Source: Escherichia phage vB_EcoM_CRJP21
DNA: 64,000 bases
Strand: one strand, 5' to 3'
Sequence record: OQ708376.1
Below are positions 42,069 through 53,733 of the stretch, one piece after another (within the stretch, counting starts at the first letter, position 1; each line of letters starts with the position of its first letter). The translations under genes were made by a program, and so were the position numbers. A model generated the notes under the pieces. The model ran no database searches. It had not been told where the DNA came from and saw only the letters and a list, made by a program, of their open reading frames with translations.

Positions 42069-42731
42069 ATGATGAAATCAAAATTAGGTTTGTTTTATAA
42101 AAATTATTTTGTTAAACAACGTAAATTTATAAAAAAATATTTCTCTGGAGAGAAGTCTAGTCCTATAATCTTTAAAAGACCAAGTTATAATACTTACTTA
42201 GCTGGTGCTAAACAGTCTAAGAAATTTATTACTCTTTTACATAAAAACAACATTAAAGCTTCTTATGTTGAAACGAGAAGAAACTCATCAATAACTCCGG
42301 GTGATTTTATTGAGTACGGATGTTTCAATATTAAGTACAATGATAATACATACTTTATGGATATTGATTGTAATACATCCAATCTTTTTAACATTGTAGT
42401 AAATCCATTAAAACAATATAATGTTTATGGTGATTCTATTATCAAATTAATCAAAAACAAAGATGGCTTTGATTTTGAAATAAATGTTTTAGATGATAAT
42501 TTTGACGAAGTACCCGTAAACCCTGAAATCTGTGATATTTTAAACAGTTTAAAAGGTAGTACCTACAATATATCATCTGATTTAATGTTTCAGTACTCAT
42601 TAATCCATAAAGATATTGAAAAGTATATTGAATGCTCCAGAATTTTGAATTTTCTCTATGATGAATTTAAAAAGAGTTCTAAAATAACTGCATACACTTT
42701 GTACAATATTCCTAAAATGGTGAATCTTTGA
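42069..42731 (+). CDS. hypothetical protein (220 aa)
   Basis: SD aaggag. Confidence 0.6.
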   Translation: MMKSKLGLFYKNYFVKQRKFIKKYFSGEKSSPIIFKRPSYNTYLAGAKQSKKFITLLHKNNIKASYVETRRNSSITPGDFIEYGCFNIKYNDNTYFMDIDCNTSNLFNIVVNPLKQYNVYGDSIIKLIKNKDGFDFEINVLDDNFDEVPVNPEICDILNSLKGSTYNISSDLMFQYSLIHKDIEKYIECSRILNFLYDEFKKSSKITAYTLYNIPKMVNL

Positions 42732-43864
42732 CAAATACAGTACTGGCAACTCCACCGTCTGTAATATTTTGTCCAGTACTGTAAATTTGTATACCATCGG
42801 TTAAGTAAGTTCTGTATAAAGTTGCTGTAACATATACGTTATTCATATTCATCTCTGTTGGTAGTACACATTTGGTATAGGCCGACACATCGGTTTGTGT
42901 ACCTATACCTAATTGTCCTGCGTTATCGCCTGTGTTATTACCAGTTGCGTAAACACCCAATGAAGTTATAATATGATTAGAAAAATATGAATAACCTACA
43001 CTGCTTCTTATTATATCGCCAGGTGCTTGTGTTGTTTGTCTTAACGAAATATATGTTTGTGATGTAGAACCATTTGCTAACTGACCAAAGTATTGACCAC
43101 CACCATGATATGCAAATAATTTATTAGTACTATTATTATTTGCTATAGCAAAAGCAAAGTAACTTGAGTTTGTTGTATAATCTTTTACTGTATAGGTATT
43201 AGTTATTTGAGAACATAACGTGTACTTTGAATATAACGTCATGTCGGTTGTACCTACGCCTGATATTGCACCAGTATAATACAATCTTCCATCGGTTCCA
43301 ATAAAACCTTGCATAAGAAAATTTGCCAATATTTTGGATGGTGTAACTCCAGTAGGTACTGTTCCTTGTACAAATGATGAAAGTGAATCAGTACTTCTAC
43401 CATTTCCTAGTTGACCATAACTACCATAGCCTGTATTCCATATAGTGTTGTCTGTGCATAATACGCTCAGTGCTCCTGCACTAACTACAATTTGTTTTAT
43501 TGTTTTGCCTAGGGCTGTTATTCTATCAAACACTATCTTTGCAGAAGACCACGTTGTTGACTTATCAGTTGATAAACCGAATGATGCACCATTTCCAGCG
43601 TACCACATCGTATTATCTTTCTTTTTTATTAAGGTTGACTCATACCCGCACCCATAGATCTTCTACGTTTGTATTGCATAAAACCCATTTCGTTTGTGTT
43701 ATAATATTACCTATACCCATTTGCCCAAACTCTTGAGAGCCTCTACTGTACAACGTACCATCTGACATAAGGGCAAAAACTGTCGTATCAGATGAAGCTA
43801 TTTTTGTAACAGAAGGTTGTATGTTCTTTTTTGATGATGTGATAATTCTTCCAAAGGGTAGCAT
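42712..43864 (-). pseudogene. RCC1-like beta-propeller paralog 1, interrupted by a frameshift (about 43605-43645)
   Basis: N-terminal MLPFGRII leader in ORF 43640..43876; body in ORF 42712..43608 in a different frame. Confidence 0.5.
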
Positions 43865-43935
43865 TGTATCCTCCAAATGTAAATCGTTATTATATTTAGG
43901 ACAAAAAAATGCCAGTACAAAATACTGGCTTTATT

Positions 43936-51412: not shown

Positions 51413-52522
51413 TTATTTTGGTAAATCAATTTTAGTAAAGACTGCAACATCCTCGATTGCACCTGGAATGGCGTAATACGATCCAGTACTATACACATCT
51501 CCATTTTTGGTTAATATCGATGTCAAACCATCACTAAAAAGAACATCCCTAATCTCACTAACTTCAACGGGTAATTGTAAATTGGTAGCACTATATATAG
51601 CACCAGTTTGAGAATTGTTTAATCCCAAACCACGGTTCGCCCCAACACCCTTCTGATATGTACTAGTAATTACCATTTGTGTAGCAGTATTTAAGGCAGG
51701 TGAATTCGTCATAAACAACGGAGAACTATTAGGCAAAGTACTTAAAGGAACTGCACGGAATGTAGTCGTACCTGAACTAAGAAAGTTTGGAGTTTGACCA
51801 CATACGAAATATGATGTACCATTATAGTAATTTAATGCATTACCACCAATGGCTGCATCGATTACACCAGAACTACGCAATCCCCAAGTGTTAATTTGTG
51901 TTTGGTTCCCCGTACCATGCTGCCCACTACTATTCCATCCAGAACTATATAGCTTATTATCTAATGTAAGATACATACTATCATTCGCATTGGTCATTAC
52001 TTTACGAACGTTCGTAGCACATTGAGTTAATGTGTAAATTGATGATGAACCAATACCCAAAGAACCACGATATCCATTATCTCCTGCACCATAGAGTACT
52101 GAATTAGTGCTAAGTACAAATATTAAACCATTTGTGCATACAATATTAGCAATTTCACTGACTGGTATAGCATTGGTAAACCAACTAGTCCTTTCAACTA
52201 ATACAGTACTGTAAGAAGTAGTTGTAGAAGATGAGAACCAGTACGTTTGACCTGATGTCCATATAGTATTATCATTTTTAATAATAACAAGTGTACGATC
52301 ACCCACGAAAAAATTAGAAACATCTGCACTTACTAATGTCCACGAAGACACCGTGTTGGTATTACCATTTCCAGATTCACCACCTTGATTTCTACCTATG
52401 TAATATAAATCATGTGAATCAGTCAATAAGAATTGACCTTGTGTAGAAGCACCAACTTTAATTATTTTTTTAGGACCAGGGACAATATTTCCATACCTAA
52501 TTATTCTTCCAAAAGGTAACAT
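51413..52522 (-). CDS. RCC1-like repeat protein, paralog 8
   Basis: MLPFGRIIRY leader; start trimmed. Confidence 0.7.
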   Translation of the reverse strand: MLPFGRIIRYGNIVPGPKKIIKVGASTQGQFLLTDSHDLYYIGRNQGGESGNGNTNTVSSWTLVSADVSNFFVGDRTLVIIKNDNTIWTSGQTYWFSSSTTTSYSTVLVERTSWFTNAIPVSEIANIVCTNGLIFVLSTNSVLYGAGDNGYRGSLGIGSSSIYTLTQCATNVRKVMTNANDSMYLTLDNKLYSSGWNSSGQHGTGNQTQINTWGLRSSGVIDAAIGGNALNYYNGTSYFVCGQTPNFLSSGTTTFRAVPLSTLPNSSPLFMTNSPALNTATQMVITSTYQKGVGANRGLGLNNSQTGAIYSATNLQLPVEVSEIRDVLFSDGLTSILTKNGDVYSTGSYYAIPGAIEDVAVFTKIDLPK

Positions 52523-52530
52523 ATTCCCTC

Positions 52531-53733
52531 CTATTGTTGCCATAACTGCGTTGGCATTAATGTTAGTGTAGTAATACTATAAGTGCCATCTGGCAATCTA
52601 CCACCATTTCCATTCCAGCCACCACATGCATATAATTTATAATCTTTAGTAATTATTATGGTTCTGCTCCAATCTTTAGATGCCATAAGAACATTTTCAT
52701 AACCACCACTTATTGCACTAAGATTAAAAATATTCCAAGTTCTAACTAATGTATTAGTTCCATTACCTTCTTGACCATATGAGTTAGCACCACTACTTCT
52801 AACATATGGTGCGTATTGTGCCATAGGTGCACCAATTGATGCATTTCCCATATTACTTGGACAAATAAAAGTACTGTACTTACTTACATCAACCGTGACC
52901 GATGTGTTCCTAATTGGTGTTAGCTGATTTACCGATGTAGTCGTACCATTACCCGCTTGTCCAGTACTGTTAGCCCCGCTATAATATACAGACCCACCAG
53001 TAGTAAACCACCAAGTAACATCGTATGTAGTACTAATATGTTCTACATTACTAATCACGAATTTGTTCAAATATACAACAGAACTACCACCACATCCACT
53101 TTCACCAAAGTTATCCTTACCACAAAACCATGCATCTTTATTTGATTTGATATAGTGCGTTCCTTGTAATGAACATGCCATATGTGTAACTTCACCCATA
53201 TTAGTCATAACTGTGAGTGTAGGGATGGAATTTTTATTACCAGAGCCACATTCACCATTGGTATTTCTTCCACACGCAATTACTCTACCATCGGTTAATA
53301 ATATTCTAGTACTTTCACCTATATATACACTCTTGATCATATTAGCCATAACACCTATTTTATTAAATGCAACAGTAACATCAGTCCATGTTGTCAAATA
53401 ACCATTAACAGGTGTTGCATCTCCATAATCAGAAAATGCAGCCACAGACCCAGTGTAGTATATTTTATTATCCAAATCAATCATCAACGAACCTTGAACA
53501 CCAAGCCAAAAGGCTGCACAGTTCCTTGCAAGTACTGTAAATGACGAAACTGCTGCTGAATTCCCAAGACCAAATTGATACATGTTATTACTACCATAAC
53601 CATATAAAGTATTAGTTGGGTTATGTAGATACATACAGTTTGTATAATGTTGTTGTAAAACATCTGAGAACTCTACAGGTTCTGGACCTGGTGCAATATT
53701 TGCGTACTTAACCATTCTTCCAAAAGGTAACAT
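52531..53733 (-). CDS. RCC1-like repeat protein, paralog 9
   Basis: MLPFGRMVKY leader. Confidence 0.7.
   Translation of the reverse strand: MLPFGRMVKYANIAPGPEPVEFSDVLQQHYTNCMYLHNPTNTLYGYGSNNMYQFGLGNSAAVSSFTVLARNCAAFWLGVQGSLMIDLDNKIYYTGSVAAFSDYGDATPVNGYLTTWTDVTVAFNKIGVMANMIKSVYIGESTRILLTDGRVIACGRNTNGECGSGNKNSIPTLTVMTNMGEVTHMACSLQGTHYIKSNKDAWFCGKDNFGESGCGGSSVVYLNKFVISNVEHISTTYDVTWWFTTGGSVYYSGANSTGQAGNGTTTSVNQLTPIRNTSVTVDVSKYSTFICPSNMGNASIGAPMAQYAPYVRSSGANSYGQEGNGTNTLVRTWNIFNLSAISGGYENVLMASKDWSRTIIITKDYKLYACGGWNGNGGRLPDGTYSITTLTLMPTQLWQQ

What the first reader, a model, noticed from the sequence alone, without database searches (positions are those of the whole stretch)
42712..53733. Tandem array of nine RCC1-like beta-propeller paralogs with a conserved N-terminal leader
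Nine head-to-tail genes on the minus strand each encode a ~380-400 aa G/T/S/N/Y-rich protein with repeated GxxGQLG-type motifs (GYGQLGNN, NGQLANN, DGQLGNG, NGQCGIGT, GQAGTGN), which are typical of RCC1-type seven-bladed propellers. All begin with an almost invariant leader MLPF(A/G/P/V)RM..Y(G/A)N, after which the bodies diverge strongly. That pattern suggests a constant docking or targeting module fused to a diversified binding surface, for example alternative receptor-binding or anti-defence specificities, or packaged proteins. I do not recall an array like this in T4-type phages, but without a database search I cannot say whether it has been described.
Basis: partly seen in the sequence, partly recalled or inferred. 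Interest (0 to 1): 0.85.

Follow-up and report, generated by a model that had tools for sequence, protein, structure and literature searches.

The report
Address-tagged RCC1 propeller array, jumbo phage
The nine tandem RCC1-type propeller genes are real but already published as virion proteins of PBECO4/121Q-type jumbo coliphages; what appears to be new is that their 12-13-residue N-terminal leader is a portable, lineage-specific tag also carried by unrelated lectin-like virion proteins.

Summary
Nine minus-strand units at 42712-53733 start with MLPFxR(M/I). Seven are intact (369-401 aa) and two carry +1 frameshifts. Pfam and two AlphaFold models show seven-bladed RCC1-like propellers. The leader is 67% identical between paralogs and the bodies 23%.

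The window is about 99.9% Escherichia phage PBECO4 (Asteriusvirus, about 350 kb), not a T4-type phage. GenBank already annotates the array as RCC1. Two papers note the multiple copies, and mass spectrometry found eight paralogs in phAPEC6 virions.

I found no paper describing the following:
- The leader M[LI]PFx[RK][IML]xxY[GA]N also heads Kelch, ConA-like (Laminin_G_3) and glycine-rich proteins in syntenic arrays of five or more jumbo-phage lineages. Many of these are MS-verified virion proteins.
- Synonymous codons vary in the leader, so selection acts on the peptide.
- Vequintavirinae carry the same RCC1 and LamG bodies under a different shared leader (xEMLxLG).
- Most genes sit behind a repeated terminator/late-type promoter/SD cassette. 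Homology breakpoints between genomes fall on these cassettes.

Best reading: a virion-incorporation (docking) tag on diversified binding modules, shuffled as cassettes. Whether the proteins sit outside or inside the virion is unresolved.

The parts
52531..53733 (-). G8, first gene of the array: intact RCC1-like propeller, 400 aa, leader MLPFGRMVKYAN
   Evidence: ORF. Pfam RCC1 40.4 bits. AF2 model pLDDT 71.6, pTM 0.77, all-beta, residues 1-18 below pLDDT 50. 100% identical to PBECO4 gp286.
51413..52522 (-). G7: intact, 369 aa, leader MLPFGRIIRYGN. Starts 8 nt after the G8 stop with no cassette of its own, so probably co-transcribed with G8
50203..51342 (-). G6: intact, 379 aa, leader MLPFARMVKYGN (equivalent to PBECO4 gp288)
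48941..50131 (-). G5: intact, 396 aa, leader MLPFARMMNYGN. Orthologues at 85-99% identity in other Asteriusvirus records
47687..48866 (-). G4: paralog disrupted by a +1 frameshift near 48735. Leader ORF 48687-48866, body ORF 47687-48763
   Evidence: The body hits RCC1. PBECO4 gp291 is split the same way.
46464..47615 (-). G3: intact, 383 aa, leader MLPFARMIQYGN
   Evidence: About 97% nucleotide identity to units in 121Q and phAPEC6.
45217..46392 (-). G2: intact, 391 aa, leader MLPFVRMLDYGN
43936..45141 (-). G1: intact, 401 aa, leader MLPFPRMIKYAN. This is the first paralog modelled
   Evidence: AF2 pLDDT 76.2, pTM 0.83, residues 1-14 below pLDDT 50. Foldseek matches UVR8, HERC2 RLD, RPGR and RCC1 at TM 0.65-0.80, E 2e-19 to 2e-13.
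42712..43864 (-). G0, last unit: disrupted by a +1 frameshift near 43645, with a degenerate leader MLPFGRIITSSKK. Body ORF 42712-43608
   Evidence: Matches PBECO4 gp296.
53734..53780 (-). Upstream region of G8: promoter-like TAAATATGATATAAT plus SD AAGGAGG, with no hairpin
51343..51412 (-). G7/G6 cassette: hairpin GCCAGTAC-TCT-GTACTGGC plus T-run (51406-51388), promoter-like TTAAATATAGTATAACA, SD
50132..50202 (-). G6/G5 cassette: hairpin 50196-50178 and motif 50164-50148. It lies inside the 120-nt stretch (50088-50207) where the one-gene difference from PBECO4 is joined
48867..48940 (-). G5/G4 cassette: hairpin 48933-48914 and motif 48899-48883
47616..47686 (-). G4/G3 cassette: hairpin 47679-47661 and motif 47647-47631
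46393..46463 (-). G3/G2 cassette: hairpin 46457-46439 and motif 46425-46409
45142..45216 (-). G2/G1 cassette: hairpin 45205-45187 and motif 45174-45158
43865..43935 (-). G1/G0 cassette: hairpin 43929-43911 with degenerate promoter and SD

Best explanation
The array encodes late-expressed, low-copy virion proteins, each built from three parts.

1. A 12-13-residue N-terminal address tag, M-L-P-F-x-R-(M/I)-x-x-Y-(G/A)-N. It is not part of the fold. I infer that it docks the protein onto, or recruits it into, a virion component common to the Rak2-like jumbo phages.
2. A short, often Pro-rich spacer.
3. A seven-bladed RCC1-like propeller that serves as a diversified ligand-binding module.

The paralogs would then compete for the same docking sites and give the particle a mixed repertoire of binding specificities. 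I favour display on the virion exterior as accessory adhesins, in the manner of Hoc or fibre-tip modules. Placement is the weakest step.

Each gene, or gene pair, is an autonomous cassette: terminator hairpin, TAAATA-N3-TATAAT promoter, SD, leader. This roughly 105-120-nt conserved block acts as a homologous-recombination substrate through which whole gene units are deleted, gained, replaced and reordered between phages.

Shown here: the fold, leader conservation at peptide level, portability across folds, the cassette structure, and breakpoints at cassettes. Shown in the literature: presence in virions. Inferred: the docking role of the leader, late timing, exterior location and ligand binding.
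For: Fold. Pfam RCC1 hits. AF2 propellers with pTM 0.83 and 0.77. TM 0.65-0.80 to UVR8, HERC2, RPGR and RCC1.

The leader lies outside the fold. Residues 1-14 and 1-18 have pLDDT below 50 and form a short helix, not a blade strand.

The leader is portable.
- GAP32_002, a ConA-like 'virion structural protein', and GAP32_001 (RCC1) both carry it.
- XbC2 genes 581-585 carry it: one RCC1, one Kelch, two Laminin_G_3 and one unknown. Flanking gene 586 is also annotated RCC1 but is cut at the locus edge, so its N-terminus was not read.
- Seven CBB Kelch/LamG genes carry it.
- So do 14 consecutive complete Munch genes, Serratia BF, 121Q and phAPEC6 (each with one Gly-rich member) and three IMG/VR contigs.

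Selection is on the peptide. Across 39 leaders P3 and F4 are invariant, with 4 Pro codons and 2 Phe codons. R6 uses AGA, AGG and CGT, and G11 uses all four codons.

The tag is lineage-specific. Vequintavirinae RCC1 paralogs (A5-4, three genes) and LamG virion proteins (4MG, GAP31, PBES02) share xEMLxLG instead.

Virion association.
- Eight leader-bearing paralogs are in the phAPEC6 virion proteome. They include gp007, a 269-aa C-terminally truncated propeller that keeps the leader.
- GAP32_001 was found by MS.
- CBB_548, 549, 551, 552 and 553 were found by MS.

Late-type promoter. TAAATA-N3-TATAAT occurs 7 times in the window against 1.3 expected. Six sites are in the array and one lies upstream of a virion structural gene at 9138-10292. 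In PBECO4 the motif lies upstream of a tail tube gene and the head-tail adaptor gene.

Cassette recombination. The window differs from PBECO4 by exactly one gene unit, with the junction inside the 120-nt cassette. Almost all megablast HSP ends against 121Q and phAPEC6 fall at ATG+20 to +47 or ATG-10 to -73, and unit order differs between phages.

Hypervariability. No phage record covers at least 80% of the array in one place, against 32 records for a 12.5-kb control region.

Adhesin flavour. The bodies are 43-48% G/S/T/N/Y with net charge -4 to +7. RCC1-like domains occur in long phage tail-fibre proteins in BFVD.
Against: - No experiment links the leader to incorporation. The correlation could reflect shared ancestry of an array whose members are virion proteins for other reasons.
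- Virion MS signals are weak (1-5 peptides, 3-17% coverage) and could include co-purifying protein.
- No docking partner has been identified, and exterior versus interior location is untested.
- The array lies far from the tail and head modules, in an accessory region flanked by arrays of small paralogous genes.
- Within the window the leader DNA is conserved together with the non-coding cassette. Some of the local conservation is therefore concerted evolution rather than selection on the peptide.
Confidence: 0.55

Rival explanations
1. The leader is a capsid-targeting sequence in the T4 sense. It directs the proteins into the prohead core, so they end up inside the head as inner body or ejected proteins. 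There they would organise DNA, as the phAPEC6 authors suggested, or be injected to bind host proteins, for example anti-defence decoys.
For: A short N-terminal tag shared by unrelated bodies in a polymorphic locus with conserved regulatory flanks is what T4 internal-protein loci look like (my own knowledge of T4 IPI-III and the CTS). phAPEC6 has an inner body whose components are unidentified, and its authors proposed the RCC1-like proteins for it. These phages carry T4-like quasi-core genes (CBB Table S2 title). Kelch and RCC1 propellers are typical protein-protein interaction modules.
Against: There is no conserved protease site after the tag. Position 9 is variable and is Glu in only 4 of the 39 aligned leaders, all of them in CBB, whereas T4-type prohead proteases cut after Glu (the protease specificity is my own knowledge). 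The proteins are not basic, with net charge -4 to +7, which argues against DNA condensation. ConA-like lectin and Gly-rich bodies, and the G/S/T/N/Y-rich composition, look extracellular. No PADLOC similarity.
Confidence: 0.2
2. The leader has no function as a peptide. It is conserved because it belongs to a DNA block (terminator, promoter, SD and translation-initiation region) that is homogenised by gene conversion and selected for expression.
For: Within the window the non-coding cassette is as well conserved as the leader codons, and TTA CCT TTT is identical in 8 of 9 copies. Recombination junctions lie in this block.
Against: G7 keeps the leader without the hairpin and promoter. Across genera the DNA diverges while P3 and F4 stay invariant, and R6, Y10 and G11 vary among synonymous codons wherever they are kept. 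In tightly packed operon-like arrays without cassettes (fHe-Yen9-04, XbC2, Munch, CBB) the peptide is still present.
Confidence: 0.07
3. The proteins act inside the infected cell, in host takeover or anti-defence, or in 'chromosome condensation' as annotated. The virion MS hits are carry-over, and the leader is a recognition tag for some other machinery such as a chaperone, a modifying enzyme or a degradation system.
For: Peptide counts in virions are low. The array sits in an accessory, hypervariable region next to other paralog arrays. Two CBB Kelch members were not detected in virions.
Against: Detection was independent in three phages and covers at least 14 leader-bearing proteins of three folds. 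The promoter motif is shared with structural genes. Bacteria have no Ran or nucleosomes for a true RCC1 function (established knowledge). The proteins have no basic character.
Confidence: 0.08

Closest known systems
RCC1-like 'DNA condensation / regulator of chromosome condensation' proteins of Rak2-like jumbo phages (GAP32 gp001; 121Q gp234-248; PBECO4 gp286-296; phAPEC6 gp001-010 and gp549-551)
   Same: This is the same gene family and the same locus. The window is about 99.9% PBECO4. Multi-copy status and virion MS detection are published (PMC5259590; PMC7247149).
   Different: The published accounts treat them as RCC1/DNA-condensation homologues. In the papers I could search, none mentions the shared leader, its presence on Kelch, LamG and Gly-rich neighbours, or the cassette structure.
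T4 capsid-targeting sequence (CTS) of internal proteins IPI, IPII, IPIII and Alt, and the polymorphic IP loci of T-even phages (from my own knowledge)
   Same: A short N-terminal peptide is shared by otherwise unrelated proteins. The locus is hypervariable between close relatives. Conserved regulatory sequence plus leader can serve as a recombination substrate.
   Different: There is no Glu-type protease site after the tag. The bodies are large lectin-like or propeller domains, not small basic proteins. Interior location is not shown.
Conserved N-terminal anchor peptides or domains of phage receptor-binding proteins in multi-RBP phages, such as the second tailspikes of SP6/K1-5-like and KP32-like phages and the branched fibres of CBA120 and RaK2 (from my own knowledge)
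   Same: A constant N-terminal docking element sits on variable distal binding domains. Several alternative proteins share one attachment system. The anchor is lineage-specific.
   Different: Here the anchor is only about 12 residues. The bodies are predicted globular propellers or lectins, not trimeric fibres or beta-helices. The genes lie more than 100 kb from the tail module.
PeSL (promoter-early stem-loop) mobile regulatory cassettes of T4-type phages (from my own knowledge)
   Same: Repeated intergenic stem-loop plus promoter units flank variable genes, and recombination at them shuffles gene modules.
   Different: The promoter here resembles those upstream of structural (late) genes, not early sigma-70 promoters. 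The repeat also extends into the first 13 codons.
Eukaryotic RCC1, UVR8 and the HERC and RPGR RCC1-like domains
   Same: Seven-bladed RCC1-repeat propeller, TM 0.65-0.80.
   Different: Identity is 14-19%. The host has no Ran or nucleosome partner. There is no basic N-terminal tail. The name 'chromosome condensation' reflects annotation transfer, not a function.

Membership tests
RCC1-like domain (RLD) superfamily | RCC1 sequence repeats detectable by the family profiles | tested here: met
   all nine bodies hit PF00415, PF13540 or PF25390 (E 1e-23 to 4e-9). Eight pass a curated cut-off for RCC1 or RCC1_2. G5 passes none, though its WD40_RLD E-value is 1.9e-16.
RCC1-like domain (RLD) superfamily | Seven-bladed beta-propeller fold | tested here: met
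   AF2 models of G1 and G8, pTM 0.83 and 0.77. Foldseek against PDB gives TM 0.65-0.80 to UVR8, HERC2 RLD, RPGR and RCC1.
RCC1 proper (Ran-GEF / chromatin-bound regulator; the 'DNA condensation protein' annotation) | Binds Ran and nucleosomes or DNA through a basic tail and specific loops | tested here: not met
   Net charge is -4 to +7 and pI 5.1-9.0, and the N-terminal leader is hydrophobic, not basic. Identity to RCC1 is 14%. Ran and nucleosomes are absent from the host (established knowledge). Binding itself was not assayed.
T4-type CTS-targeted internal head proteins | Short conserved N-terminal tag on unrelated bodies | tested here: met
   The leader is found on RCC1, Kelch, Laminin_G_3 and Gly-rich bodies.
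T4-type CTS-targeted internal head proteins | Prohead-protease cleavage site (after Glu, L/I-x-E in T4) at the end of the tag | tested here: not met
   there is no conserved Glu in positions 1-13. Position 9 is K, N, T, Q, E and others, and is Glu in only 4 of the 39 aligned leaders, all in CBB. The spacer has no common motif.
T4-type CTS-targeted internal head proteins | Located inside the capsid and ejected with the DNA | not testable with these tools
   Only whole-virion MS lists are available.
Phage receptor-binding proteins with a conserved N-terminal anchor | Conserved N-terminus with a variable distal binding domain | tested here: met
   Leader 67% identical against body 23%. The region is hypervariable between close genomes.
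Phage receptor-binding proteins with a conserved N-terminal anchor | Trimeric fibre or spike architecture | tested here: inconclusive
   Monomer models are globular propellers with no coiled coil or beta-helix. Oligomeric state was not modelled.
Phage receptor-binding proteins with a conserved N-terminal anchor | Encoded within the tail or baseplate module | tested here: not met
   In PBECO4 the array is at 157-170 kb, while tail tube and sheath are at 17-23 kb and tail fibre genes at 41-45 kb.
PeSL-like mobile regulatory cassettes | Repeated intergenic stem-loop plus promoter | tested here: met
   Seven hairpins GCCAGTAC-N3/4-GTACTGGC plus T-run. Promoter-like motif: six sites in the array at up to 3 mismatches (four exact) against 1.7 expected in the whole window.
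PeSL-like mobile regulatory cassettes | Recombination at the cassettes shuffles the flanked genes | tested here: met
   One-unit indel against PBECO4 with the junction in the 120-nt repeat. HSP ends cluster at cassette and leader edges, and unit order is permuted in phAPEC6.
PeSL-like mobile regulatory cassettes | Early (sigma-70) promoter class | tested here: not met
   The sigma-70 consensus scan does not report the cassette promoter, and by eye the -35 position matches TTGACA at 2 of 6. The motif TAAATA-N3-TATAAT recurs upstream of tail tube, adaptor and virion structural genes. Timing was not measured.

The most novel reading that the evidence does not exclude
M[LI]PFx[RK][IML]xxY[GA]N is a self-sufficient, roughly 12-residue 'virion address tag' of the Rak2-like jumbo phages, with xEMLxLG as its counterpart in Vequintavirinae. 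It plugs any globular cargo into a fixed site on the particle. The mixed population of RCC1, Kelch, LamG and Gly-rich modules it recruits would account for some of the still unassigned decorations seen by cryo-EM on 121Q and phAPEC6, such as the density at every hexamer centre or the collar and tail decorations. The particle would then carry a combinatorial lectin coat that is re-dealt by cassette recombination.
Probability: 0.3. Interest if true: 0.7.

Novelty: new variant of a known kind. Interest (0 to 1): 0.45.

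Why it matters
The array itself adds nothing to what GenBank and two papers already say. The 'chromosome/DNA condensation' label now spreading through jumbo-phage annotations is probably misleading.

The useful result is a concrete, cheap-to-test hypothesis: a short portable tag decides which accessory proteins are built into a 350-kb phage particle. 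If true, three things follow.
- It would explain why unrelated lectin-like proteins cluster in one hypervariable locus.
- It would help assign the unidentified surface densities of 121Q-type virions.
- It would give a display or cargo-loading handle for jumbo phages, analogous to the T4 CTS, Hoc and Soc systems.

The cassette-bounded unit exchange is also a clear natural example of modular gene shuffling.

Tried and rejected
1. Exhaustive profile search of 1.84 billion representatives with the seven paralogs. It returned 102,525 hits, and the top 150 were dominated by giant multi-RCC1 proteins. It was uninformative about the leader.
2. Leader-only profile, padded with X, against the 5.8-billion-protein index. 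The accepted search collected only 9 candidates, all 31-61-aa fragments, which are leader ORFs of frameshifted paralogs in other phages. It could not serve as a census.
3. My first reading was that the window is a mosaic of PBECO4 and Salmonella-phage alleles. That was wrong. Direct blastn shows 99.9% PBECO4 throughout, with one gene unit missing.
4. The leader as the 'velcro' strand closing the propeller. Rejected because it is low-confidence and helical in both models and also occurs on non-propeller folds.
5. A T4-like protease-cleaved CTS. No conserved Glu site.
6. The tail 'hairs' or whiskers as RCC1 proteins. This is unlikely for the RCC1 bodies, because CBB has hairs but no RCC1 homologue. 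CBB does have other leader-bearing proteins, so the tag family as a whole is not excluded.
7. Defence-system similarity: none in PADLOC.
8. Peptide-level MS data that would show whether the N-terminus is retained: no supplement is held for PMC7247149, and the CBB supplements give only presence or absence.
9. Ungapped upstream identity is underestimated because of 1-nt indels. The MAFFT alignment is the better view of the cassette.

Full report
**What is there.** The window carries nine head-to-tail units on the minus strand between 42712 and 53733. Each starts with MLPFxR(M/I). The ATGs are at 53733, 52522, 51342, 50131, 48866, 47615, 46392, 45141 and 43864.

- Seven units are intact genes of 369-401 aa.
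- Two units (G4, 47687-48866, and G0, 42712-43864) need a +1 shift after about 43 and 72 codons. Neither site has a slippery run.
- tblastn finds no further copy elsewhere in the window.
- With the two frames repaired, the first 13 residues are 67% identical between paralogs and the bodies 23% (range 19-34%). The leader is the best-conserved 13-column stretch of the alignment.
- Nucleotide identity drops from about 0.8 in codons 1-13 to about 0.33 in the next 39 nt.

**Fold.** All nine bodies hit the Pfam RCC1 family profiles, and eight pass a curated cut-off. AlphaFold2 models of G1 (pLDDT 76, pTM 0.83) and G8 (pLDDT 72, pTM 0.77) are all-beta propellers. The G1 model superposes on UVR8, HERC2 RLDs, RPGR and RCC1 with TM 0.65-0.80 and E 2e-19 to 2e-13. 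In both models the leader (residues 1-14 and 1-18) has pLDDT below 50 and appears as a short helix. It is an N-terminal extension, not a blade strand.

**Where the window comes from, and what is already known.** The window is not from a T4-type phage. It is about 99.9% identical to Escherichia phage PBECO4 (Asteriusvirus, 348 kb), a Rak2-like jumbo myovirus.

- RefSeq annotates ten genes of this array as 'regulator of chromosome condensation', including the same two split ORFs.
[quoted passage not shown] It also notes multiple homologues in 121Q and PBECO4.
- The phAPEC6 paper (PMC7247149) reports 'eleven similar RCC1-like proteins' and lists eight of them in the virion proteome, at 1-5 peptides each. 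It speculates that they organise the packaged DNA.
- A 2026 genome paper still calls them chromosome condensation regulators and notes that they differ between close relatives.

The array, its fold assignment and its virion association are therefore already known.

**What the comparison adds: the leader is portable.** The same leader heads proteins of unrelated folds in the syntenic locus of related phages.

- In GAP32 the neighbour of the RCC1 gene is a 210-aa ConA-like 'virion structural protein' that starts MLPFARIFRYGD.
- In Xanthomonas phage XbC2, five consecutive genes (581-585) start MLPFP: one RCC1, one Kelch, two Laminin_G_3 and one of unknown fold. The flanking gene 586 is also annotated RCC1, but it is cut at the locus edge and its N-terminus was not read.
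- CBB has seven such genes (Kelch, LamG and unknown) and no RCC1.
- Salmonella phage Munch has fourteen complete leader-bearing genes in a row: eleven annotated 'DNA condensation protein' and three others. A fifteenth gene, 548, also annotated 'DNA condensation protein', is cut at the locus edge.
- Yersinia phage fHe-Yen9-04, Serratia phage BF, 121Q, phAPEC6 and three uncultivated IMG/VR contigs have further sets. Both 121Q and phAPEC6 include a 244-245-aa glycine-rich member.
- A degenerate DNA pattern for the leader matched only 350-380-kb Rak2-like contigs, plus one 109-kb fragment, in IMG/VR.

**Selection acts on the peptide.** Over 39 leaders the consensus is M-[LI]-P-F-x-[RKIQ]-[IML]-x-x-Y-[GA]-N. 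P3 and F4 are invariant, yet they use four Pro codons and two Phe codons. R6 uses AGA, AGG and CGT, and G11 uses all four Gly codons. Selection is therefore on the peptide, not only on the DNA.

**The tag is lineage-specific.** Vequintavirinae phages have homologous RCC1 paralogs (A5-4, three in tandem) and LamG virion proteins (4MG, GAP31, PBES02). All of these start with a different shared motif, xEMLxLG. The tag goes with the phage lineage, and the bodies are interchangeable.

**Link to the virion.**

- Every RCC1-like protein detected in phAPEC6 virions carries the leader. This includes gp007, a 269-aa C-terminally truncated propeller.
- Five of the seven leader-bearing CBB proteins are MS-verified, as is GAP32 gp001.
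- The promoter-like motif upstream of the array genes generalises to TAAATA-N3-TATAAT. It occurs seven times in the window against 1.3 expected. Six sites are in the array and the seventh precedes a 'virion structural protein' gene at 9138-10292.
- In the first 50 kb of PBECO4 its only two occurrences precede a tail tube gene and the head-tail adaptor gene.

I infer late, structural-class expression. This has not been measured.

**Cassettes and shuffling.** Seven intergenic spaces contain the hairpin GCCAGTAC-N3/4-GTACTGGC followed by a T-run. Six units then have TTAAATATAGTATAATG or a near variant, followed by AAGGAGG and the ATG. G7 lacks the cassette and starts 8 nt after the G8 stop.

- The only structural difference between the window and PBECO4 is the absence of one whole unit (PBECO4 gp289). 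The junction lies inside the 120-nt repeat made of cassette plus leader, at window 50088-50207.
- Against 121Q and phAPEC6, megablast segments are unit-sized. Almost all of their ends fall at ATG+20 to +47 of the next gene or at ATG-10 to -73.
- Orthologous units occur in a different order: G8-G7-G6 in the window and G6'-G7-G8' in phAPEC6.
- No phage record covers at least 80% of the 12.5-kb array in one place. For a control region of equal length (window 17000-29500), 32 records do, at 96-99% identity.

The array is a hotspot of unit gain, loss and replacement, and the conserved cassette plus leader is the likely recombination substrate. An assembly skip across the repeat cannot be excluded for the single-unit difference.

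**Mechanism.** My best explanation (confidence 0.55) is that the leader is a docking or incorporation tag for a virion component common to these phages, and that the propellers are diversified binding modules. I lean towards exterior display for four reasons.

- The co-tagged folds are typical carbohydrate- or surface-binding modules (ConA-like lectin, Kelch, Gly-rich).
- The bodies are 43-48% G/S/T/N/Y with very little charge.
- RCC1-like domains occur in long phage tail-fibre proteins.
- 121Q and phAPEC6 have unassigned decorations at every hexamer centre, on the collar and on the tail.

The low peptide counts would fit about ten paralogs sharing a limited number of sites.

**Rivals.**

- *T4-like capsid-targeting sequence, delivering the proteins into the head (0.2).* The architecture of the locus fits. 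The lack of any conserved Glu cleavage site and the non-basic, lectin-like bodies argue against it.
- *A purely DNA-level explanation (0.07).* It fails on the synonymous-codon evidence and on arrays that keep the peptide without the cassette.
- *A non-structural intracellular role with MS carry-over (0.08).* It has to explain detection in three independent virion proteomes.
- *The tail whiskers.* They are unlikely to be the RCC1 proteins, because CBB has whiskers but no RCC1 gene.

**Verdict.** The array is a published, annotated family of jumbo-phage virion proteins, not an unknown in a T4-type phage. The part that seems new is the recognition of a short, lineage-specific, fold-independent N-terminal tag and of the cassette-bounded shuffling of its cargo genes. 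In the literature I could search, no paper mentions either. It is a new variant of a known principle, seen in CTS tags, RBP anchor peptides and PeSL-type cassettes. Interest is moderate, and the hypothesis can be tested directly with leader-GFP incorporation, N-terminal MS and cryo-EM.

Noticed in passing
window 53836-57886 (+): At least 16 head-to-tail ORFs of about 60 aa are clear paralogs (M[NH]KE[FY]Y ... LLLIYRY). The 223-aa ORF at 55284-55955 interrupts the run. They diverge from the RCC1 array. [quoted passage not shown]
   Followed up: partly
window 39247-42027 (+): Eight tandem paralogs of 104-141 aa are hydrophobic enough to look multi-transmembrane, and they converge on the RCC1 array. 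CBB, fHe-Yen9-04, XbC2 and Munch show the same layout: a leader-tagged array followed by convergent small genes. CBB and fHe-Yen9-04 annotate these as membrane proteins.
   Followed up: partly
window 10315-10329 (-), upstream of ORF 9138-10292: The motif TAAATACGTTATAAT (TAAATA-N3-TATAAT) lies 27 nt before the SD/ATG of a 384-aa gene matching phrog_10468 'virion structural protein'. The same motif precedes the tail tube and adaptor genes in PBECO4. It is a candidate late-promoter consensus for Asteriusvirus.
   Followed up: partly
window 141-3808 (+): Cluster of seven tRNA genes: Gly-TCC, Ser-TGA, Arg-TCT, Ser-GCT, Met-CAT, Asn-GTT and Thr-TGT.
   Followed up: no
window 43640-43876 and 48687-48866 (-); P0156-P0163: Leader-only ORFs left by frameshifts are not peculiar to this window. 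A leader profile retrieved 31-61-aa fragments from CMSTMSU, CRJP21, PHA46, SE_PL/7t3 and metagenomes. Decaying paralogs are therefore common in these arrays.
   Followed up: partly
L022 (phAPEC6 MK817115.1) 2434, 6063, 7325 (+): Three complete leader-bearing ORFs (369-aa RCC1, 396-aa RCC1 and a 244-aa Gly-rich protein) are not annotated in the phAPEC6 record. The record also repeats its ends, so gp001 equals gp551.
   Followed up: partly
L012 (Serratia phage BF), L003 (fHe-Yen9-04), L004 (XbC2): A second leader subtype, MLPFPIISNT(N/K), lacks the YGN. It coexists with the MLPFxRxxxYGN subtype inside the same phage. This could mean two docking sites, or tolerance at positions 6-12.
   Followed up: no
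window 36686-38335 (+): A 549-aa ORF with HNH/homing-endonuclease matches lies in the accessory region upstream of the membrane-protein paralogs.
   Followed up: no
L026 (Serratia phage PCH45, 212 kb) 1471-2133: A LamG-like homologue of GAP32_002 in an unrelated 212-kb jumbo phage starts MLESMLAGK. This resembles the Vequintavirinae xEMLxLG leader, so that tag may reach beyond Vequintavirinae.
   Followed up: no
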